DNA of 64,000 bases from a virus (lineage: Duplodnaviria > Heunggongvirae > Uroviricota > Caudoviricetes). The translations under genes were made by a program, and so were the position numbers. The stretch is taken from IMG/VR virus record IMGVR_UViG_3300037418_000950. One strand, 5' to 3'. Below the pieces are notes generated by a model, which was not told where the DNA came from, did not search any database, and saw nothing but the letters and a program-made list of their open reading frames with translations. The first letter of the stretch is position 1, and each line of letters starts with the position of its first letter. Positions 275 to 25,812 of the stretch are shown in pieces.

Positions 275-870
275 GCACCATTGATCTTTCGGAGAACACT
301 TTGTCGTATTTTTTCTTTTTCAGCTTCGGTGCGAGGTTTACCTTTGTTCCAAGGAGTTTTGCCGCTATTAGCGGTGCCTATACGTTTTTTTGATTCTTCT
401 GAATGAGTTTTATTTTTGAACGTTCCATTGGGGAATTTTTTTCGCAAACTTGCTGTTCGCTTGGCACTTTGCTTCTTGTAAAATTCTTTTCCATCACTGG
501 AATTTTTCCATTTTTGGAAACCAGCTTTACGGGCGTCAATACCACGTTCATACATATACTTGGCTTTTTCTGGCGACATACCTAAACCAAGACGATTGAT
601 ATATCCAAAGCCACCCTTGCCACCTGGACATAGGTTGTAGGTATCTTCTGATATGACGACTAATTCTTTTTCTTTAGCATTCATTTCGTCTTCATTATCG
701 AAGATGTGTAGAATCTCTTTGTGAAAATTTTCTATACCGTATTTTTCAATTGCTCGTGTGATAAGAATACCTGAACCCATGTAGCCATCATTCAGGTCTT
801 CTGTTTGATGTTTACCGATATAGTATTTGAAATTGATTTTATTGGTAATACGATAGATAGTGTAGTACAA
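271..870 (-). CDS. GIY-YIG homing endonuclease
   Basis: N-terminal YTIYRITNKINFKYYIGKH...GSG motif (GIY-YIG) plus basic C-terminal NUMOD-like repeats (KKRIG..SGK, KGKPRTEAEKEK). Confidence 0.8.
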   Translation of the reverse strand: MYYTIYRITNKINFKYYIGKHQTEDLNDGYMGSGILITRAIEKYGIENFHKEILHIFDNEDEMNAKEKELVVISEDTYNLCPGGKGGFGYINRLGLGMSPEKAKYMYERGIDARKAGFQKWKNSSDGKEFYKKQSAKRTASLRKKFPNGTFKNKTHSEESKKRIGTANSGKTPWNKGKPRTEAEKEKIRQSVLRKINGA

Positions 871-935
871 TGATACTCTACAGTTGTTCTAATAGGTCTT
901 ACGATATGCCTATTTAGACAACTGTAGAGCTTATG

Positions 936-1017
936 CGGAGCCCAAAGGAATCGAACCCTCAACCTTTCGGTTGGCAATCGCTTTCAAGGCGATCTGTCCC
1001 CATGGACGCTGGACTCC
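936..1017 (-). tRNA. tRNA-Ser (anticodon TGA), class II with long variable arm
   Basis: Cloverleaf read by hand on minus strand: acceptor GGAGTCC/GGGCTCC, anticodon loop CTTGAAA, variable hairpin CCAACCGAAAGGTTG, T-arm GGGTTCGATTCC. Confidence 0.7.
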
Positions 1018-1025
1018 AGCTTTGT

Positions 1026-1226
1026 TTATTTAGATATGCCTAATGCAGCGTCTATCATTTCTTGCCAGATGGATTCAAAAGTTGTGCCGCGTTCTGTAGC
1101 AGCTTCGATCATATCAGGCGTTGGATCACGCATCGCTTCAAGAACTTTGCGGGCAATCCATATAGGTTCACCCACAAATCTTGTGTCATGAATGACTTGT
1201 TGAAGACGCGCTTTCATTGGTGTCAT
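1026..1226 (-). CDS. hypothetical protein
   Basis: 66 aa ORF, 4-nt overlap with the upstream DUF433-like gene. Confidence 0.4.
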   Translation of the reverse strand: MTPMKARLQQVIHDTRFVGEPIWIARKVLEAMRDPTPDMIEAATERGTTFESIWQEMIDAALGISK

Positions 1227-1453
1227 TTGTATGTTCCGTATCGACCGATGTATCCAGGGTGTTCTTTACAGTACGTGATGGATTCTTTAATCTGTGCGTC
1301 AGATATGTGCGGAAAACATTCCCTGACTTCTTCGATACCGTGGCGTTCATAGAGCTTGGCCACGTCGTAGGGTTCGACGCGCGTCCCTTTGATGGTCGGT
1401 CTACCACCACACAACCCTGGAATTTCAACGATCATTGATTTCATCCTGGCCAC
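1223..1453 (-). CDS. DUF433-like small protein
   Basis: 76 aa; IPGLCGGRPTIKGTRV motif typical of the DUF433 family often paired with toxin-like genes. Confidence 0.5.
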   Translation of the reverse strand: MARMKSMIVEIPGLCGGRPTIKGTRVEPYDVAKLYERHGIEEVRECFPHISDAQIKESITYCKEHPGYIGRYGTYK

Positions 1454-1641
1454 GGCACAGAGAAGGTGATGTTCCCTACGTCTCCACTGCGATGCATGAT
1501 ACCCAAGTATTCCGTGTGTCCCGAATCTTGGCTTGGTTGGATCGAGAGTGTAAATTGGCCAGCGTTAGTGATCCAGACGCGATGCTTTTTGCAGAGTTCG
1601 TTTAGGTCATTCATGAAAGCCAATGCTTGTTCGTCGGTCAT
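1441..1641 (-). CDS. hypothetical protein
   Basis: 66 aa ORF overlapping the neighbours by ATGA-type junctions (operon-like). Confidence 0.4.
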   Translation of the reverse strand: MTDEQALAFMNDLNELCKKHRVWITNAGQFTLSIQPSQDSGHTEYLGIMHRSGDVGNITFSVPWPG

Positions 1642-1826
1642 TTCGCGACCGCTATTTTCATAGCTTCTGTTTCGAAGTGTTCATAGTATTGGATAGCCGC
1701 CTCTAAGCGAGTCGTATTGACTCCCCCAGCCACCCCAGGTCCCCCAAGACCAGTGTTGTGAACCTTCATAAGGTCAAGCACGGCCCGTGCAGTCTCGATT
1801 AGTAGTCGTGATTCAGGTCCGTTCAT
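1638..1826 (-). CDS. hypothetical protein
   Basis: 62 aa ORF in a tight co-oriented array. Confidence 0.35.
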   Translation of the reverse strand: MNGPESRLLIETARAVLDLMKVHNTGLGGPGVAGGVNTTRLEAAIQYYEHFETEAMKIAVAK

Positions 1827-2011
1827 TTATTCACCTCTACAAGAAACCCATTACTGACTTTAAGATATCCAGTTTCGATAAGGTCTTCGATAATGGAGTG
1901 TTCGCGCACGGTCCATTCGCCATAATAATTGAGACCATCGAACAAATTGGCATATTGGACTAGTGACTGAACGGCATCCCCAGATACACTCATGCGAATG
2001 CTACTCCCCAA
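1823..2011 (-). CDS. hypothetical protein
   Basis: 62 aa ORF with TTG start; 4-nt overlap with the downstream ORF. Confidence 0.3.
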   Translation of the reverse strand: MGSSIRMSVSGDAVQSLVQYANLFDGLNYYGEWTVREHSIIEDLIETGYLKVSNGFLVEVNK

Positions 2012-2166
2012 CCCATTTTTCCAGGTAGTTTCACGCCTGCGAGGAACGCAATGCGGGCAATGTCCTTATAGAGAACCTTCGCGGCCTCGGGAGCCTCTAC
2101 GGCTTCCCACCAAGCTTCGAAATGTTCTTCGGCGGTTCGATTGTCTCTGACCCATTCAGGCATGAC

Positions 2167-2361
2167 TCAAAATCTTTCTCCACAATGCGGGCACACTGTT
2201 GCCAGCGGCGGTTTCTCGATGCCGTAGTCTTCAGGATCAACGTTGTATTTGGATTTGATGTAATTGTAGGGATGGTCGGGATCGTCGCCGTCAAGGGCGT
2301 AACGATTGACCATCATTTGGCCACGCTTGACCCAAACGGACATTTCAAGGTCTTTGGTCAT
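2167..2361 (-). CDS. hypothetical small zinc-ribbon protein
   Basis: 64 aa ending in CPHCGERF. An unlisted 57 aa ORF (start 2163, MPEWVRDNRTAEEHFEAWWEA...) follows in the same frame. Confidence 0.4.
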   Translation of the reverse strand: MTKDLEMSVWVKRGQMMVNRYALDGDDPDHPYNYIKSKYNVDPEDYGIEKPPLATVCPHCGERF

Positions 2362-2376
2362 TCAATATTTTTCCCG

Positions 2377-2451
2377 TGGTAGCTCCAGTGGGTTTCGATC
2401 CCACTTCGCCCGCTTGAAAGGCGGAAATTCTAGCCACTAAACTATGGAGCC
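2377..2451 (-). tRNA. tRNA-Glu (anticodon TTC)
   Basis: Acceptor GGCTCCA/TGGAGCT, discriminator A, encoded CCA; anticodon stem TCCGC/GCGGG with loop CTTTCAA; T-arm GTGGGATCGAAACCCAC. Confidence 0.7.
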
Positions 2452-2475
2452 ACTATTCCGAAATACGCGGCAGAT

Positions 2476-2504
2476 ATTATAGTATAGTTAAGCGATTTTT
2501 TCAA
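2476..2504 (-). promoter_or_regulatory. sigma70-like promoter upstream of tRNA-Glu
   Basis: Minus strand TTGAAA-N17-TATAAT, about 18 nt upstream of the tRNA 5' end. Confidence 0.5.
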
Positions 2505-2727
2505 GCTCTAAATTTTCAGCTTGACACGACTCAAAGACTATGATGTTCTGAAAGGTTATATACCAACCAAGTTTGAAGACCCATGTGCGACGGGCGAACA
2601 TGGCGAGGGCCAAATCCCCCTGTGCCCTCTGAAACGCATCGTGAATGCGCGATTCGAGAGTTGACGAATAAACAAGACTGTAGCGATCCAATTAACAAGG
2701 CACCCTCGATAGTAGTTGACACTGGAG

Positions 2728-3021
2728 CTATTTAGTAGGTTTCGTAATTAGGTTCGCCAGTCGTCCCCCAATCTTGCGATTCTTGGCAATGTCTTTGATG
2801 TGATCATACTTGCCGTCATTCAGGTCGGTCTCGATTTGAGCCAAGTTGACGACACCCAATTCTTCCAAAAACTGAAAAGCATTTTGCATTCCGTACAGGA
2901 TGCCCTCGATCTTGCCTGCCGAGTAACCCGACTTGCGGCCCTGGTCGTATTGCATCTTCCCGTACTTGGCGAATAAATAGCCAATGGCGGCGAAAATTGC
3001 CGCGAACCAATAATAATTCAT
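2728..3021 (-). CDS. small membrane protein (holin-like candidate)
   Basis: 97 aa; N-terminal hydrophobic segment YYWFAAIFAAIGYLF; divergent from a cell-wall hydrolase-like gene. Confidence 0.4.
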   Translation of the reverse strand: MNYYWFAAIFAAIGYLFAKYGKMQYDQGRKSGYSAGKIEGILYGMQNAFQFLEELGVVNLAQIETDLNDGKYDHIKDIAKNRKIGGRLANLITKPTK

Positions 3022-3043
3022 TAAACCCCCAAAGGATACTCAG

Positions 3044-3499
3044 TTGACATTGCCCTGGATTACCGAAGCTCAAAAACACTTAGGTATAAAAAAAGATGGA
3101 TTGGATGATATGACTATCGTGACGGACGCGAGTTATGACCCCGCGACGCAACCTTGGTCAGGATTGTTCATGGCCTTTGTCTTCGCACAGATCGGCACAG
3201 AGCCGCCGCCGAACTTCTTGGACCCCAAGGCATGGGTAGACTTCGGAACCGCCCTAGATGAACCTGCTATGGGCTCTATCATTGTCCTCGGCCCTGGGAC
3301 ACGGGACACCCCCCATGTTGGCATCTATCTCGGGGAAGATGCCAACTACTACTTTCTACTTGGTGGAAATCAGAATGACACAGTTTGTGTCACGCAAGCG
3401 CCAAAGGGGAAGGATGATGTATTCCGCTGGCCGCCCGACTTCGTGAATGCGCTGGTGAAAGGCAGAGTGAATACTACCATAGAAAAAGCAAAACTTTAA
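3044..3499 (+). CDS. TIGR02594-like/CHAP-like putative cell-wall hydrolase
   Basis: 151 aa, TTG start preceded by AAAGGA. HVGIYLGEDANYYFLLGGNQ block resembles the phage-associated TIGR02594 (NlpC/P60-CHAP-like) family. Confidence 0.5.
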   Translation: MTLPWITEAQKHLGIKKDGLDDMTIVTDASYDPATQPWSGLFMAFVFAQIGTEPPPNFLDPKAWVDFGTALDEPAMGSIIVLGPGTRDTPHVGIYLGEDANYYFLLGGNQNDTVCVTQAPKGKDDVFRWPPDFVNALVKGRVNTTIEKAKL

Positions 3500-7912: not shown

Positions 7913-8277
7913 AGTTTGATGATGTTATTCGGTATGCGGAGAATTATTGTTCGTCGGGTTGCGTAGGGTTTATGGGGGTTATCGACAATAGCGGCATCAA
8001 TCAGTTCGTCCCGCCAACTATCCTTGACTTTTTTGAACCCTACAATCGTGGTTTCGTGAACATAGATGCTAGAGCCTCGCCGCGTAACATATGCCACTTT
8101 ATCGCCAACTTGTAATTCTATATCTCGGAAGTCTTTCATGCTGCGAACTTTCTCAGAAGGATTACGTCCATCGAAGGATCGAGACATTGACGTTGCGAGT
8201 CCATGACGACGTAAAACTTGGCGCGTTTTTTGATGATAGGATTGTGGCAGGTGAGGTGATTGCGAACGAAGGCCCAA
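7909..8277 (-). CDS. hypothetical protein
   Basis: 122 aa ORF, 4-nt overlap with the HAD gene. Confidence 0.4.
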   Translation of the reverse strand: MGLRSQSPHLPQSYHQKTRQVLRRHGLATSMSRSFDGRNPSEKVRSMKDFRDIELQVGDKVAYVTRRGSSIYVHETTIVGFKKVKDSWRDELIDAAIVDNPHKPYATRRTIILRIPNNIIKL

Positions 8278-22460: not shown

Positions 22461-22536
22461 TGGTGGAATGCGACGGGAGTCGAACCCGCAATGTCGGTTT
22501 GCAAAACCGAAGTGTTCCCAATTACACCACGCCCCC
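22461..22536 (-). tRNA. tRNA-Ala (anticodon TGC)
   Basis: D-arm GTGT-AATTGGGA-ACAC, anticodon arm TCGGT-TTTGCAA-ACCGA, T-arm GCGGGTTCGACTCCCGT, G3:U70 wobble, CCA encoded; acceptor stem has one mismatch. Confidence 0.6.
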
Positions 22537-22568
22537 ATTTTACAAATGTTTGCGAATAGATTGTTAAG

Positions 22569-22653
22569 CTCGAAGGGTAGGGCTCGAACCTACGACGGGA
22601 TTTCTCCTACGGATTAACAATCCGTTGCCTGCTACCAACTCGGCTACCTCCGA
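22569..22653 (-). tRNA. tRNA-Asn(GTT)-like with long variable arm, embedded in an extended stem
   Basis: Acceptor TCGGAGG/CCTTCGA, anticodon arm ACGGA-TTGTTAA-TCCGT, 16-nt variable region with GGA-GAAA-TCC hairpin, T-arm GTAGGTTCGAGCCCTAC. Flanks GATTGTTAAGC/GCTTAACAATC extend the acceptor helix to 18 bp. Confidence 0.45.
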
Positions 22654-22682
22654 GCTTAACAATCTGATTTGCGAAAGTATTT

Positions 22683-22711
22683 AGTATACCATATTACAGT
22701 ACAATAATCAA
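22683..22711 (-). promoter_or_regulatory. sigma70-like promoter upstream of the tRNA-Asn-like/tRNA-Ala pair
   Basis: Minus strand TTGATT-N17-TATACT; the -35 overlaps the HNH gene stop codon. Confidence 0.45.
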
Positions 22712-23145
22712 GGTAGTTGTTTCCATGCGGAACCACAACGAATATCAAGAACAGTACCTTTCGTAACCTTATATTTTTCGGATAATTCTGCGGCAGACAA
22801 AGAACTATATTTTATGGCATATGCGTCGTCATAAGAGAGTATCCTTTTTTTAAATCGACCTTTGGATACACAATCCTTCACATTATCTAAATGTGTTCCG
22901 AGGAATAAATGCTTGGGGTTTACACATAGAGGATTATCACATTCATGGCATACCAACAACTTTCCAGGTTCAATCCCATAATGTAGAACGTATGAAAATC
23001 TATGCACTCGGTAGTGTTTATTCTGAACGGTCCAAATTTCCCCGTAATCCCGCCCGTTCGTTCCACCTAACCAATTCCAACACTCATTCTCACCACGTTT
23101 ATCAACTCGTGACCAAAATCGTGTGATATATTTTTCTTCAATCAT
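22708..23145 (-). CDS. HNH homing endonuclease
   Basis: 145 aa; ECWNWLGG...GYG...HR..Y.......VCHECDNPLCVNPKHLFLGT matches the HNH_3 family. Confidence 0.8.
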   Translation of the reverse strand: MIEEKYITRFWSRVDKRGENECWNWLGGTNGRDYGEIWTVQNKHYRVHRFSYVLHYGIEPGKLLVCHECDNPLCVNPKHLFLGTHLDNVKDCVSKGRFKKRILSYDDAYAIKYSSLSAAELSEKYKVTKGTVLDIRCGSAWKQLP

Positions 23146-23816: not shown

Positions 23817-24002
23817 TTAGTCAATATTTTCAAATTCCACTATGCCATTGCTTTTTACTTGCAACAAACATCGGCGAACCGCTGCCCTAATAACACCAGT
23901 TCTGGTACTATTGAGAGACTTTGCAACTTTGTCTATTTCCGCGATCATTTCATTAGATAACCAAAGAGGAATTTGAGACATTCCTTCGCGCTTTTTAGGC
24001 AT
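23817..24002 (-). CDS. ribbon-helix-helix (CopG/Arc-like) DNA-binding protein
   Basis: 61 aa; IPLWLSNEMIAEIDKVAK...RTGVIRAAVRRCL fits an RHH beta-strand plus two helices. Confidence 0.5.
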   Translation of the reverse strand: MPKKREGMSQIPLWLSNEMIAEIDKVAKSLNSTRTGVIRAAVRRCLLQVKSNGIVEFENID

Positions 24003-24411
24003 CGTTGATCAGCCCCTCAGGTTCGGTTTCGATGATATCAGCTATTTCGTTGAAGTCCGTGCCGCTATCGTTGACCGAGGTCAGAGCAACCGTTGGATAG
24101 GGACCATAGTATCCGCAGTTGGTTCGGAGCCCGAGCCAATCCCTGACTTCATCGGGAAGGATATTGCTAATCTGGTTACGCGTGCTATCGGGGTCTTCGC
24201 CGTCTTCAAGTTCGCGATACACAAAATATTCGCCTTCCCATTGGACGAACTTCGGCGCATCACCTGATTTCATCCAAAGGTCACAGGCGACTCCGAGACA
24301 ACAGAATCCATCTTCATAACGAAGTTGACTCGTTGCCTGTTTGTAGTCCCCCGACCGCAAGGCATCGATCCAGAGCTTGCGGTGTTCCTTCTGTTGTTCC
24401 TTAGTCCACAT
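23995..24411 (-). CDS. 'FCCLG' family small acidic protein, paralog 1
   Basis: 138 aa; W..EQQ..HR.LWI.ALRSG.Y.Q...LR...GFCCLGVACD...SGD...DWLGL...NDSG..F..IADIIE.EP..LI shared by four tandem genes. Confidence 0.55.
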   Translation of the reverse strand: MWTKEQQKEHRKLWIDALRSGDYKQATSQLRYEDGFCCLGVACDLWMKSGDAPKFVQWEGEYFVYRELEDGEDPDSTRNQISNILPDEVRDWLGLRTNCGYYGPYPTVALTSVNDSGTDFNEIADIIETEPEGLINDA

Positions 24412-24862
24412 TGCGAATCAACTTTTTCGGTTCATCTTCAATAATATCGGCGATCTGTTTGAAGGTTTTGCCGCTGTCATTCAGGCCAGAAAGGGAATCG
24501 GAAGTATAAAACTTACCGTCAATCTTCTCACAGTTCCAATGGCTTTCTTCCACGGGTCTAAAATGCGTGCCAGAATCATCTTGAAGTCCAAGCCAATCCT
24601 TGACAGGCGCAGGAAGCACGGTCGCTATAAGACCTTCATCACCGCGCTTGTAACGGAAGAATTTATTGGTTTCCCATTTCGTTGTCTTTGAAGCATCGCC
24701 CGACTTGAGATACACGTCACAGGCAACCCCGAGACAACAGAAGCCGACATTGTCTCGCAAACATCCCATAGTTTGTTCGTATTCACCCGAACGAAGGGCT
24801 TTAACCCACATGCGGCGATGTAGAGCTTGTTCCTCAGGCGTCCACTTCTTGGTCATCTGCAA
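24401..24862 (-). CDS. 'FCCLG' family small acidic protein, paralog 2
   Basis: 153 aa; same conserved blocks; overlaps paralog 1 by 11 nt. Confidence 0.55.
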   Translation of the reverse strand: MQMTKKWTPEEQALHRRMWVKALRSGEYEQTMGCLRDNVGFCCLGVACDVYLKSGDASKTTKWETNKFFRYKRGDEGLIATVLPAPVKDWLGLQDDSGTHFRPVEESHWNCEKIDGKFYTSDSLSGLNDSGKTFKQIADIIEDEPKKLIRNVD

Positions 24863-25310
24863 TCAATCCTTTAGGTTCTTTCTCAACAATGTCGGCAATC
24901 TGGTTGAAAGTTTTCTTGCTGTGATCATTTTCGGAAATCAAAGTCGATCTTTTGCGATTAGTAAAGAACTCACCACAATTCGTTTTCAAACCAAGCCAGT
25001 CTGAGACTGGTTGTGGAAGCGATCCCGAAACGTAATAATCGTGATAATATCCTTCTTCACTTTTTACTTTTGTCCTAAACTGAAAACCGTGATCATGATC
25101 GAGACCAAGCCACTTCGCGACCTTGGGAGCATCCCCCGATTTCAGATAGACGTCACAGGCAACCCCGAGACAACAGAATTCAGGTTGGTCATCAAGATCA
25201 CTTAACTTTCGGAGCGCGCCCCTCGCCTGACTATAGTCGCCCGACCGTAGAGCTTTAATCCAAAGTTCTCTATGTGCCTTCTGTTCCTCAGGAGTCCATT
25301 TCTTGCTCAT
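24834..25310 (-). CDS. 'FCCLG' family small acidic protein, paralog 3
   Basis: 158 aa; same conserved blocks; overlaps paralog 2 by 29 nt. Confidence 0.55.
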   Translation of the reverse strand: MSKKWTPEEQKAHRELWIKALRSGDYSQARGALRKLSDLDDQPEFCCLGVACDVYLKSGDAPKVAKWLGLDHDHGFQFRTKVKSEEGYYHDYYVSGSLPQPVSDWLGLKTNCGEFFTNRKRSTLISENDHSKKTFNQIADIVEKEPKGLIADDQEVDA

Positions 25311-25720
25311 ATCAACAACCCCTCAGGTTCGGATTCAATAATGTCAGCAATCTTCTTGAACGGCATACCGCAGTCATTGTTGCTTACGAGACTGGTATTT
25401 TCATAATGGCCATTGCATGTTTTCAATCCCAACCAATCCATAACTGGTTGAGGCAATTCAACGTCGTCCGAATAAGGATCGCTATATTTTGGTTCGGCAA
25501 ATGCAAAAGAGTTGTCTTGCAACCAGTTCATATACTCAGGCGCATCCCCCGACTTGAGATACAAATCACAGGCGACTCCGAGGCAACAATAGCTAAATCC
25601 CTTATCGTCGGCGTTCGTAGATCGTAAGGTGCATTTGGTTTGCTTGTACTTGCGCGACCGTAGAGCTTCGATCCAGGCGCGACGATGCTCGGCCTGTTGT
25701 TCAGGTGTCCACTTACTCAT
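25307..25720 (-). CDS. 'FCCLG' family small acidic protein, paralog 4
   Basis: Start taken at internal Met (MSKWTPEQQAEHRRAWIEALRS...) by family alignment; ATGA overlap with paralog 3. Confidence 0.5.
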   Translation of the reverse strand: MSKWTPEQQAEHRRAWIEALRSRKYKQTKCTLRSTNADDKGFSYCCLGVACDLYLKSGDAPEYMNWLQDNSFAFAEPKYSDPYSDDVELPQPVMDWLGLKTCNGHYENTSLVSNNDCGMPFKKIADIIESEPEGLLI

Positions 25721-25812
25721 GATATACCTTTTGAGAGAAAAATATGAGCATCCCCCGACCACGAATGCCCCCATGCCACACGCGAATAGATTTGTGGCCA
25801 TCCACCAGATCG

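What the first reader, a model, noticed from the sequence alone, without database searches (positions are those of the whole stretch)
22559..22664. tRNA-Asn(GTT)-like with class-II-length variable arm, enclosed in an 18-bp extended acceptor helix
The core (22569-22653) folds with anticodon loop TTGTTAA (GTT), but it carries a 16-nt variable region with its own hairpin, which is unusual for Asn. The flanking 11-mers GATTGTTAAGC and GCTTAACAATC are perfectly complementary, extending the acceptor stem from 7 to 18 bp with no CCA encoded. A TTGATT-N17-TATACT promoter lies 10 nt upstream. This could be a precursor-processing helix of the RNase III/RNase P type, or it could mark the element as a distinct structured RNA rather than a decoding tRNA.
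Basis: seen in the sequence. Interest (0 to 1): 0.55.

Follow-up and report, generated by a model that had tools for sequence, protein, structure and literature searches.

The report
Helix-enclosed long-arm phage tRNA-Asn
This is a real phage tRNA gene for asparagine of an unusual, phage-only type with an extra arm, and its precursor is locked in a long stem that recurs, with compensating base changes, in unrelated phages, which points to a special maturation route.

Summary
ARAGORN and Rfam call a tRNA-Asn(GUU) at 22653..22569 with a 15-nt hairpin variable region, no CCA, and 12 (not 11) perfectly paired flanking bases, which gives a 19-bp helix.

It is not a one-off. At least 89 distinct loci, essentially all phage or metagenome and including the annotated tRNA-Asn of phiKZ, carry the same long-variable-arm tRNA-Asn. 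All stems covary, U1-A72 is in 79/82 and G73 in 82/82.

The leader-trailer helix is absent from most members and from the closest relatives. A sister strain (99.9% identical downstream) has an ordinary 76-nt CCA-encoding tRNA-Asn in the same slot. The helix does recur at five other CCA-less members, with extensions of 12-17 bp. In those, 12 of 14 pairs show double changes and G-U outnumbers A-C 9:1. No helix occurs at 782 other tRNAs.

Best reading: a decoding tRNA whose precursor stem blocks RNase P and exonucleases, so it needs a double-strand-specific cut (RNase III type) and then CCA addition. The tRNA family and the conserved helix are shown. The enzyme is inferred.

I found no description of either feature in the searchable literature. 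I rate it a new variant of a known kind, interest about 0.6.

The parts
22570..22653 (-). tRNA-Asn(GUU) body, nucleotides 1-72. The acceptor is UCGGAGG/CCUUCGA. The D stem has 3 bp with an enlarged D loop. The anticodon arm is ACGGA-UUGUUAA-UCCGU. The T arm is GUAGG-UUCGAGC-CCUAC.
   Evidence: ARAGORN; Rfam tRNA at 55.1 bits; family alignment and covariation.
22616..22618 (-). Anticodon GUU.
   Evidence: ARAGORN reports the anticodon at gene position 36; sequence.
22594..22608 (-). 15-nt variable region AGGAGAAAUCCCGUC with a 3-bp stem and GAAA loop (class-II-type extra arm).
   Evidence: Sequence. The V-arm pairs covary across 48 family members: AU 17, GC 17, CG 13 at the third pair.
22654..22665 (-). 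5' arm of the leader-trailer helix (AGAUUGUUAAGC). Nine of its bases equal anticodon-arm nucleotides 30-38.
22558..22569 (-). 3' arm of the helix (GCUUAACAAUCU), starting with the discriminator G73 and C74. No CCA follows.
22683..22711 (-). Sigma-70-like promoter TTGATT-17-TATACT with an extended -10 TG. It is conserved in relatives L104 and L106.
22668..22675 (-). Upstream copy of the 8-bp direct repeat TTCGCAAA, 2 nt outside the 5' arm.
22549..22556 (-). Downstream copy of the 8-bp direct repeat TTCGCAAA, 1 nt outside the 3' arm.
22537..22677 (-). 141-bp block that differs from sister strain L104. L104 has 95 bp here, holding an ordinary 76-nt CCA-encoding tRNA-Asn.
   Evidence: Alignment A2; flank identities of 1780/1782 downstream and 224/233 upstream.
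22465..22536 (-). tRNA-Ala(UGC), 32 nt downstream. It is probably co-transcribed.
22708..23145 (-). HNH_3 homing-endonuclease-like ORF directly upstream. Its 3' end overlaps the -35 box.
   Evidence: PHROGs; Pfam PF13392.

Best explanation
The element is a genuine, decoding phage tRNA-Asn gene. It belongs to a phage-restricted family in which an Asn tRNA (GUU, G73, U1-A72) has acquired class-II architecture: a hairpin variable arm, a 3-bp D stem and an enlarged D loop.

This copy belongs to a CCA-less sub-lineage of that family. In the sub-lineage the 5' leader and 3' trailer pair for at least 12 bp in direct continuation of the acceptor stem, including G73:C-1.

The gene is transcribed from the conserved promoter at 22711..22683, together with tRNA-Ala. 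The primary transcript therefore carries the tRNA at the tip of a 19-bp helix, about 24 bp if the T stem is counted as coaxially stacked.

That helix hides the RNase P site and the 3' end from the usual single-strand-dependent enzymes. Maturation then most likely starts with a double-strand-specific endonuclease of the RNase III type, as in rRNA processing stems. Trimming follows, and the host CCA-adding enzyme adds CCA (or C75-A76 onto G73-C74).

What is shown:
- tRNA family membership
- restriction of the family to phages
- the helix, its recurrence and its compensatory evolution
- the allelic replacement of an ordinary tRNA-Asn

What is inferred:
- that the helix is a processing or stability stem
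- the identity of the nuclease
- charging with Asn
For: tRNA calls: ARAGORN and Rfam.

Family:
- blastn finds 80-82% homologues annotated tRNA-Asn in phiKZ-like phages and in Pseudomonas phage Y1-MI.
- Pattern scans give 16 of 18, about 59, and 27 further loci in IMG/VR and JGI metagenomes.
- 115 long tRNA-Asn calls collapse to 89 distinct loci.
- Among 82 copies, U1-A72 is in 79, G73 in 82, and CCA is encoded in 43.
- 18 of 23 consensus pairs, including the V arm, have double compensatory changes.
- A scan of 185,579 species genomes gave only one true copy, on a MAG contig rich in tRNAs.

Helix:
- Extension cores are 12, 12, 12, 14, 15 and 17 bp in window, L011, L136, L127/L132, L125 and L116.
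- 6 of 50 CCA-less class-II Asn loci carry it, against 0 of 290 other CCA-less tRNAs (Fisher 7.7e-6).
- Gapless alignment of the arms: 12 of 14 extension pairs have changes on both sides. 91.7% of cells are paired, against 32-47% when the partners are slid. 0 of 500 shuffles reach the observed value.
- Within the helices G-U outnumbers A-C by 9 to 1 (p = 0.011), as expected for selection on the tRNA-sense RNA rather than on DNA.
- In L132 the arms fill the 20-nt and 13-nt spacers to the neighbouring tRNAs.
- In the helix-bearing phages the other tRNAs encode CCA: L125 23/23, L011 17/18, L132 3/3, window 4 of 6.

Literature: acceptor-stem extension is an RNase P antideterminant, with a 2-bp extension giving about 10-fold lower kcat/Km (PMC10731613).

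Promoter: it is conserved in L104 and L106.
Against: - Only 6 of 50 CCA-less family members have the helix, so it is not needed to mature a CCA-less class-II tRNA-Asn.
- The nearest relatives (L104, L106, L108) have ordinary tRNA-Asn genes without it.
- No cleavage data exist, and no RNase III gene was seen in the held sequence.
- The six helix cases were picked because they have the helix, so the covariation statistics describe conservation within that set and are not an unbiased test.
- The window copy is perfectly paired, so on its own it cannot tell RNA selection from a recent DNA event.
- It also carries an 8-bp flanking direct repeat that the RNA model does not explain.
- L125 has G73-A74, which does not fit a neat 'cut after C74' version of the model.
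Confidence: 0.5

Rival explanations
1. The helix is a DNA-level by-product with no RNA function. Either the inverted repeat marks the ends of a swapped-in or transposed tRNA cassette (12-bp terminal inverted repeats plus an 8-bp target-site-like duplication). Or it arose by template switching seeded on the acceptor-stem inverted repeat, which copied one flank onto the other.
For: - The tRNA with its arms sits in a 141-bp block that replaces an ordinary tRNA-Asn in a sister strain that is 99.9% identical downstream.
- An exact TTCGCAAA direct repeat lies 1-2 nt outside both arms.
- The window helix is perfect, which suggests it is young.
- Homing-endonuclease genes adjoin the tRNA in the window, phiKZ, L010 and L011.
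- In phiKZ the class-II tRNA-Asn plus an HNH gene is a 774-bp insertion that splits a canonical tRNA-Asn gene.
Against: - The arm sequence occurs nowhere else in the window or in IMG/VR, so there is no repeat family.
- The arms of the six loci are partly alike but differ through compensatory double changes at 12 of 14 pairs, with a 9:1 excess of sense-strand G-U. That is not what transposase-recognised ends or neutral decay give.
- None of 782 other tRNA genes shows such a repeat, although all have the same 7-bp seed.
- In L132 there is no room for element ends or duplications.
- None of the other five loci shows a flanking direct repeat.
Confidence: 0.2
2. The helix-enclosed form is not matured into a decoding tRNA. 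It acts instead as a stable tRNA-like RNA with a sequestered 3' end, for example as a decoy for a host nuclease or sensor that recognises tRNA-Asn, or as a regulator.
For: - No CCA is encoded and the 3' end is buried, in genomes where nearly all other tRNAs encode CCA.
- Phage tRNA variants that neutralise tRNA-targeting defences are documented (PMC10264068; PMC11464382).
- In the window, the leader arm copies 9 nt of the anticodon arm, and the trailer is complementary to the anticodon loop.
Against: - The tRNA body is under the same constraints as the CCA-encoding family members. The acceptor stem covaries, and U1-A72 and G73 are kept. That is unnecessary for an RNA that is never charged.
- It replaces the only tRNA-Asn of the sister strain at the same promoter.
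- The match to the anticodon arm is unique to the window.
Confidence: 0.12
3. The flanking complementarity is a chance match next to an ordinary tRNA gene.
For: None beyond the fact that most family members lack it.
Against: - It is 12 perfect pairs in exact register with the acceptor stem.
- The maximum extension among 782 other tRNAs is 5 bp.
- It recurs at five homologous loci.
Confidence: 0.01

Closest known systems
Bacterial class II tRNAs (tRNA-Ser, tRNA-Leu, tRNA-Tyr, tRNA-Sec)
   Same: A hairpin variable arm of 13-21 nt, a 3-bp D stem with G13/A22-type closure, and extra D-loop nucleotides. All of these covary or are conserved in the family.
   Different: - The anticodon and acceptor identity are those of Asn (GUU, G73, U1-A72).
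- The D-loop core AGUUGGUAG and the T arm resemble canonical phage tRNA-Asn genes rather than the tRNA-Tyr or tRNA-Ser of the same arrays. This suggests an Asn tRNA that gained an arm.
- As far as I know, no cellular class II tRNA-Asn exists. The genome scan found none.
Non-canonical V-arm tRNAs: allo-tRNAs (Mukai et al. 2017, PMC5389517) and nematode nev-tRNAs (cited there; details from my own knowledge)
   Same: A long V arm combined with an anticodon that is not Leu, Ser or Tyr. The V arm plus G73 are the SerRS elements named in PMC5389517.
   Different: - Allo-tRNAs have 8/4 or 9/3 acceptor/T branches and Sec-like D arms. This family is a normal 7/5.
- This family keeps U1-A72 and is found in phage tRNA arrays.
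rRNA processing stems cleaved by RNase III (bacterial rrn operons; established knowledge)
   Same: Leader and trailer pair into a long helix that encloses the mature RNA. The helix sequence evolves by compensatory change, and the helix must be cut before final end trimming.
   Different: - It encloses a single tRNA and is only 12-17 bp beyond the acceptor stem.
- No cleavage has been shown.
- As far as I know this has not been described for a tRNA gene.
CCA-less phage tRNA precursors (T4 tRNA-Pro/Ser, which need 3' trimming and CCA addition before RNase P; from my own knowledge)
   Same: A phage tRNA without an encoded CCA, in a host and phage setting where CCA is otherwise encoded. It depends on the host CCA-adding enzyme.
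   Different: The T4 precursors have no long leader-trailer helix.
Pre-tRNAs with short acceptor extensions (G-2G-1 pairing with RCC; PMC10731613)
   Same: The leader pairs with the 3' end and extends the acceptor stem, which slows RNase P.
   Different: The extension there is 2-3 bp and involves the CCA. Here it is at least 12 bp and replaces the CCA.
Free-standing homing endonuclease genes in phage tRNA clusters (e.g. T4 SegB; from my own knowledge)
   Same: HNH or DUF559 endonuclease genes adjoin the tRNA. The sister strains differ by a conversion-like tract that ends at the tRNA-Asn/tRNA-Ala junction.
   Different: - Both haplotypes carry the HNH gene.
- The endonucleases next to different family members are unrelated.
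- No cleavage site is known.

Membership tests
tRNA (Rfam RF00005) | Cloverleaf with a 7-bp acceptor stem and D, anticodon and T arms, scoring above the curated threshold. | tested here: met
   55.1 bits against a gathering score of 29, full model 1-71. ARAGORN calls tRNA-Asn.
tRNA (Rfam RF00005) | Stems supported by covariation among homologues. | tested here: met
   18 of 23 consensus pairs show double compensatory changes in 48 homologues.
Bacterial tRNA-Asn | Anticodon G34 U35 U36. | tested here: met
   GUU sits in a 7-nt loop in all 82 copies.
Bacterial tRNA-Asn | Discriminator G73 and first pair U1-A72. The latter is the GatCAB determinant (PMC2811023). | tested here: met
   G73 in 82/82 and U1-A72 in 79/82. 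The window has both. The paper is cited.
Bacterial tRNA-Asn | Class I architecture: a 4-5-nt variable loop and a 4-bp D stem. | tested here: not met
   The variable region is a 15-nt hairpin and the D stem has 3 bp. Canonical copies in the same contigs have 72-74 nt up to the discriminator.
Bacterial tRNA-Asn | Aminoacylation with Asn, either directly or through Asp and GatCAB. | not testable with these tools
   This needs charging assays. GatCAB is reported to reject extra D-loop bases (PMC2811023), so the indirect route is uncertain.
Class II tRNA | Variable arm with its own base-paired stem, plus D-arm adaptations. | tested here: met
   The V-arm pairs covary, and the 3-bp D stem is invariant or covarying (GC 35, CG 12 at pair 10-27).
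Class II tRNA | Specificity for Leu, Ser, Tyr or Sec. | tested here: not met
   The anticodon is GUU in all members.
RNase III-type processing stem | Leader and trailer form a continuous duplex of about two helical turns around the mature RNA. | tested here: met
   A 19-bp continuous helix, plus a 5-bp T stem that stacks on the acceptor in the tRNA fold. The extension is at least 12 bp in all six loci.
RNase III-type processing stem | Pairing conserved through compensatory change. | tested here: met
   12 of 14 extension pairs show double changes, and 0 of 500 shuffles reach the observed value. G-U outnumbers A-C 9:1. Caveat: the loci were chosen because they have a helix.
RNase III-type processing stem | Cleavage by RNase III in vivo or in vitro. 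| not testable with these tools
   No transcript-end data are available.
MITE / small transposable element | Terminal inverted repeats. | tested here: met
   A 12-bp perfect inverted repeat.
MITE / small transposable element | Target-site duplication directly abutting the repeats. | tested here: inconclusive
   An 8-bp exact direct repeat is present but offset by 2 nt and 1 nt. It is absent at the other five loci.
MITE / small transposable element | Multiple copies sharing the same ends. | tested here: not met
   No further copy in the 64-kb window or in IMG/VR.
Bacterial Y RNA-like (YrlA) tRNA mimics | A tRNA-like module joined to a long stem formed by the 5' and 3' ends, matching the curated model. 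| tested here: not met
   No YrlA hit in the window at the gathering threshold. Here the stem extends the acceptor arm, and a complete anticodon arm is present.

The most novel reading that the evidence does not exclude
In a sub-lineage of phage class-II tRNA-Asn genes, both mature ends are set by a single staggered double-strand cut at the centre of a roughly 24-bp coaxial helix: 12-bp leader-trailer stem, 7-bp acceptor stem and 5-bp T stem. The cut would leave 5'-pU1 and a ...G73-C74 3' end with a 2-nt overhang. The CCA-adding enzyme then completes that end. This would be an RNase P-independent route of tRNA maturation in a bacterial system.

A second, independent novel reading: the added V arm plus G73 redirects charging (Ser, or unamidated Asp), so that the phage deliberately recodes Asn codons.
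Probability: 0.12. Interest if true: 0.8.

Novelty: new variant of a known kind. Interest (0 to 1): 0.62.

Why it matters
Two things come out of this finding.

First, phages from soil, freshwater and marine metagenomes, and the well-studied phiKZ group, share a tRNA-Asn with class-II architecture. Cellular genomes appear to lack this combination, and I could not find it described. It is an accessible test case for three questions:
- what a variable arm does to synthetase, GatCAB and nuclease recognition
- why phages carry their own tRNAs
- whether such tRNAs evade tRNA-targeting defences

Second, a subset of these genes has replaced the encoded CCA with a conserved leader-trailer helix of at least 12 bp. 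By published RNase P kinetics that helix should block the universal 5' maturation enzyme. If a double-strand-specific nuclease releases the tRNA, it would be an unreported maturation route and a possible point of phage control over tRNA supply.

The natural pair of near-identical phage haplotypes (ordinary tRNA-Asn versus helix-enclosed class-II tRNA-Asn) is a ready-made comparison.

Tried and rejected
1. Origin from tRNA-Tyr by anticodon shift. I suspected this from the CCCGAG...AGGG D arm. But the 21 distinct tRNA-Tyr sequences found across these loci (several in the same arrays) are heterogeneous and unlike the family, whereas the D-loop core and T arm match canonical phage tRNA-Asn.

2. 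Integron attC-like sites. The arms contain GTTAAGC/GCTTAAC, which fit GTTRRRY/RYYYAAC. The order is inverted relative to attC, and the other five loci lack the motif.

3. Repeated mobile element. The arm sequence has no other copy in the window or in IMG/VR.

4. Window flanks as relics of a split canonical tRNA-Asn, as in phiKZ. Only GCAAAT...TGTTA resembles it, no D-arm remnant lies upstream, and the sister strain shows that the slot held an intact canonical gene.

5. Group I intron in the phiKZ split gene. Rfam gave no intron hit at E<=1, and neither possible insert boundary ends in G.

6. A specific link to one homing endonuclease. The window HNH and PHIKZ296 share only the HNH_3 motif, and the L011 neighbour is DUF559.

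7. Phage-encoded CCA-adding enzyme or RNase III. Simple motif scans of the window and loci found none. This is weak negative evidence.

8. Close relatives in INPHARED or IMG/VR. None exist. Relatives came only through the protein index.

9. Literature. Nine full-text searches found no description of a long-variable-arm tRNA-Asn or of helix-enclosed phage tRNAs.

10. A last scan for more helix-type copies added only L110, which is cut at the locus end.

Full report
**Observation**

The feature lies on the minus strand. Read 5'->3', the region is:

GATTGTTAAGC | TCGGAGG TA GCCGAGTTGGTAGCAGGC A ACGGA TTGTTAA TCCGT AGGAGAAATCCCGTC GTAGG TTCGAGC CCTAC CCTTCGA | GCTTAACAATC

- ARAGORN calls tRNA-Asn(gtt) at 22568-22653.
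- Rfam's tRNA model scores 55.1 bits against a threshold of 29.
- The variable region is 15 nt, with a GGA/UCC stem and a GAAA loop.
- No CCA is encoded.
- The complementarity is 12 bp (22654-22665 with 22558-22569). It begins with the discriminator G73 paired to C-1, so the acceptor helix is 19 bp.
- The fold is far more stable than shuffles (-47.1 kcal/mol, z = -6.4). A longer fold adds a few interrupted pairs.
- The promoter-like TTGATT-17-TATACT with an extended -10 TG is at 22711..22683.
- The same arrangement is present in four other independent public assemblies.

**What the tRNA is**

A blastn search of phage genomes found 80-82% matches annotated 'tRNA-Asn' in phiKZ and about 20 relatives, and in Pseudomonas phage vB_PF_Y1-MI. 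These genes also have a long variable arm and G73.

Pattern scans recovered many more copies:
- 16 of 18 IMG/VR hits
- 59 metagenome hits
- 27 further IMG/VR loci

In total there are 115 long tRNA-Asn calls and 89 distinct loci, nearly always inside phage tRNA arrays.

Across 82 copies, U1-A72 is present in 79, G73 in 82, and CCA is encoded in 43. In a 48-sequence alignment, 18 of 23 consensus pairs show double compensatory changes. These include the V-arm stem and a 3-bp D stem.

The D-loop core (AGUUGGUAG) and the T arm resemble canonical phage tRNA-Asn genes rather than the tRNA-Tyr or tRNA-Ser of the same arrays. I therefore read the family as an Asn tRNA that acquired class-II architecture.

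A scan of one genome per 185,579 bacterial and archaeal species found a single true copy, on a tRNA-rich MAG contig. The family is effectively phage-restricted.

U1-A72 is the determinant that bacterial GatCAB uses for tRNA-Asn and tRNA-Gln (PMC2811023). G73 plus GUU complete the Asn-like identity set, as I know it for E. coli. Charging itself is untested. Two cautions apply:
- A V arm plus G73 are also the elements SerRS uses (PMC5389517).
- GatCAB is reported to reject extra D-loop bases.

**Local context**

All genes here are on the minus strand. The order is endolysin, an HNH_3 endonuclease ORF (22708-23145), the promoter, tRNA-Asn, tRNA-Ala, and a 347-aa ORF.

No close relative exists in INPHARED or IMG/VR. 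The protein index gave relatives of the 347-aa ORF.

- Contig L104 is 1780/1782 identical downstream and 224/233 identical in the HNH 3' end. In exactly this slot it has an ordinary 76-nt, CCA-encoding tRNA-Asn with no inverted repeat, 8 nt before tRNA-Ala.
- The 82% relative L106 also has an ordinary tRNA-Asn. It has the same promoter (TTGACA-17-TATACT, with TATACTAAATA shared) but no HNH gene.
- More distant relatives have either a canonical tRNA-Asn (L108) or a V-arm tRNA-Asn with a 4-bp D stem (L109).

So the class-II tRNA and its arms form a 141-bp block that replaces a 95-bp block. The breakpoint is at the tRNA-Asn/tRNA-Ala junction, and a more divergent tract runs into the HNH gene. This pattern looks like co-conversion. 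The promoter is conserved across these relatives and is probably real.

**The helix**

Most family members have no leader-trailer pairing.

The helix does recur at five other loci:
- L011: 13 pairs, including G-U pairs
- L136: 12 perfect pairs
- L127/L132: 14 pairs
- L125: 8 pairs, one mismatch, then 4-6 pairs
- L116: 3 pairs, one mismatch, then 13 pairs in gapless register; about 17 in the gapped fold

It is always in register with the acceptor stem. G73 is always paired to C-1 (U-1 in L127). The gene is always CCA-less.

The counts:
- A contiguous extension of at least 7 bp occurs in 5 of 89 distinct class-II Asn loci, plus L116. It occurs in 0 of 782 distinct other tRNAs, where the maximum is 5 bp.
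- Restricted to CCA-less genes, the comparison is 6/50 against 0/290 (Fisher 7.7e-6).
- In these phages the other tRNA genes encode CCA: L125 23/23, L011 17/18, L132 3/3, window 4 of 6 as scored (5 of 6 if tRNA-Ala is read with a bulged A).

A gapless alignment of the arms shows that they are partly homologous, with a consensus near AGUGUGUUUUGC/GCAAAACACACU. They differ through compensatory changes:
- 12 of 14 extension pairs have changes on both sides.
- 91.7% of cells are paired, against 32-47% when the partners are slid.
- 0 of 500 shuffles reach the observed value.

Inside the helices G-U pairs outnumber A-C mismatches by 9 to 1 (p = 0.011). That asymmetry is expected if the tRNA-sense RNA is what is selected. 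In L132 the arms occupy the entire spacers to the flanking tRNAs.

Caveat: these loci were picked because they have a helix. The statistics therefore show conservation within the set and are not an unbiased discovery test.

**Mechanism**

Published kinetics and cryo-EM work show that even a 2-bp extension of the acceptor stem lowers RNase P kcat/Km about 10-fold, because the extension must be unwound (PMC10731613). A 12-bp extension that also buries the 3' trailer should block both RNase P and 3' exonucleases.

I therefore infer that maturation begins with a double-strand-specific cut of the RNase III type, as in rRNA processing stems. Trimming and CCA addition would follow.

The geometry fits. 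The extension is never shorter than 12 bp. Together with the 7-bp acceptor and the 5-bp T stem, which stack coaxially in tRNA, it gives about 24 bp. This places the -1/+1 junction at the centre. Five of six trailers start G73-C74, which a 2-nt-staggered cut would leave ready for C75-A76 addition. L125 (G73-A74) does not fit that refinement.

These steps are inference. No nuclease was tested, and no RNase III gene was found in the held sequence.

**Rivals**

1. DNA-level by-product: cassette ends or template switching. In its favour are the allelic block, the perfect window repeat, and an exact 8-bp direct repeat TTCGCAAA just outside both arms. Against it:
   - there is no other copy of the arms
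   - compensatory evolution and the G-U bias
   - specificity to this one tRNA type
   - the tight spacing in L132

2. A non-decoding tRNA-like decoy. This is possible, but it fits poorly with retained acceptor covariation and Asn identity elements, and with the fact that the gene replaces the sister strain's only local tRNA-Asn.

3. Chance. It is excluded by the counts.

**Unexplained**

- Nine bases of the window's 5' arm (GAUUGUUAA) equal anticodon-arm nucleotides 30-38. The trailer is therefore complementary to the whole anticodon loop and contains the Asn codon AAC. I estimate a chance probability of about 2e-3 (post hoc), and the other five loci lack this match.
- The flanking direct repeat is also unexplained.
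- The function of the V arm is unknown.

**Comparison and novelty**

The element is a member of the tRNA family and has Asn identity elements. It fails the class I architecture that defines known tRNA-Asn, and it fails the Leu/Ser/Tyr/Sec specificity that defines known class II tRNAs.

The closest analogues are:
- allo-tRNAs and nev-tRNAs, for a V arm combined with a non-class-II anticodon
- rRNA processing stems, for the helix
- T4 CCA-less precursors, for the dependence on CCA addition

Nine literature searches found no description of either feature. That library is incomplete, so the absence is provisional. I rate the finding a new variant of a known kind.

**Side finding**

In phiKZ a canonical tRNA-Asn gene is split exactly between nucleotides 37 and 38. 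The insert is 774 bp and carries the class-II tRNA-Asn, a hairpin and the HNH gene PHIKZ296. Joining the two halves restores a perfect 76-nt tRNA-Asn.

Noticed in passing
L002 (phiKZ NC_004629) 782-820 and 1595-1631, minus strand: A canonical tRNA-Asn gene is split between nucleotides 37 and 38 by a 774-bp insert. The insert holds the annotated (class-II) tRNA-Asn, a hairpin and the HNH_3 gene PHIKZ296. Joining the halves gives a perfect 76-nt tRNA-Asn with CCA. The insert does not end in G, and Rfam finds no intron. T2P (L003) keeps a decayed 5' half.
   Followed up: partly
window 22537-22677 versus L104 234-328: Two haplotypes of the same phage differ here: an ordinary 76-nt tRNA-Asn versus the helix-enclosed class-II tRNA-Asn. 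The downstream 1782 bp differ at 2 positions. The upstream 233 bp (the HNH 3' end) differ at 9. This resembles a gene-conversion tract ending at the tRNA-Asn/tRNA-Ala junction.
   Followed up: partly
window 22656-22664 and 22616-22624 (minus): The 9-mer GATTGTTAA in the 5' arm is identical to anticodon-arm nucleotides 30-38. The trailer is therefore complementary to the entire anticodon loop and contains the Asn codon AAC. This is not seen at the other helix-bearing loci.
   Followed up: partly
window 22668-22675 and 22549-22556 (minus): An exact 8-bp direct repeat TTCGCAAA lies 2 nt and 1 nt outside the inverted-repeat arms. It looks like a target-site duplication, but no other copy of the element was found.
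   Followed up: partly
window 22465-22536 (minus): The acceptor stem of tRNA-Ala(UGC) needs a bulged A (or a G4xA69 mismatch) to give G3-U70, A73 and CCA. The same sequence is kept in relatives L104 and L106.
   Followed up: no
L013 7990-8290: Three tandem Asn-type genes: a class-II tRNA-Asn (8002-8087), a class-II-like copy whose acceptor ends do not pair and which ARAGORN does not call (about 8096-8180), and an 82-nt tRNA-Asn with a small UUCG variable hairpin (8188-8269).
   Followed up: no
L109 1749-1831: A 46%-identity relative of the window phage has, in the same slot, an 83-nt tRNA-Asn with the GGAGAAAUCC variable hairpin but a normal 4-bp D stem (like L006a). It may be an intermediate form. 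A weak HNH-like ORF overlaps it on the other strand.
   Followed up: no
L001 (OR500437.1) 729-3058: The GenBank record annotates all tRNAs of this array on the strand opposite to the one ARAGORN calls.
   Followed up: no
window 23995-25801 (minus): Three adjacent paralogous ORFs (phrog_18067 / Pfam DUF8296) lie upstream of the endolysin. Distant relatives L022-L026 lack the whole block of paralogues, endolysin, HNH and tRNAs between the glycosyltransferase and the 347-aa ORF.
   Followed up: no
window 935-1017 (minus): tRNA-Ser(UGA) is the only other tRNA in the window without an encoded CCA. It has no leader-trailer helix.
   Followed up: no
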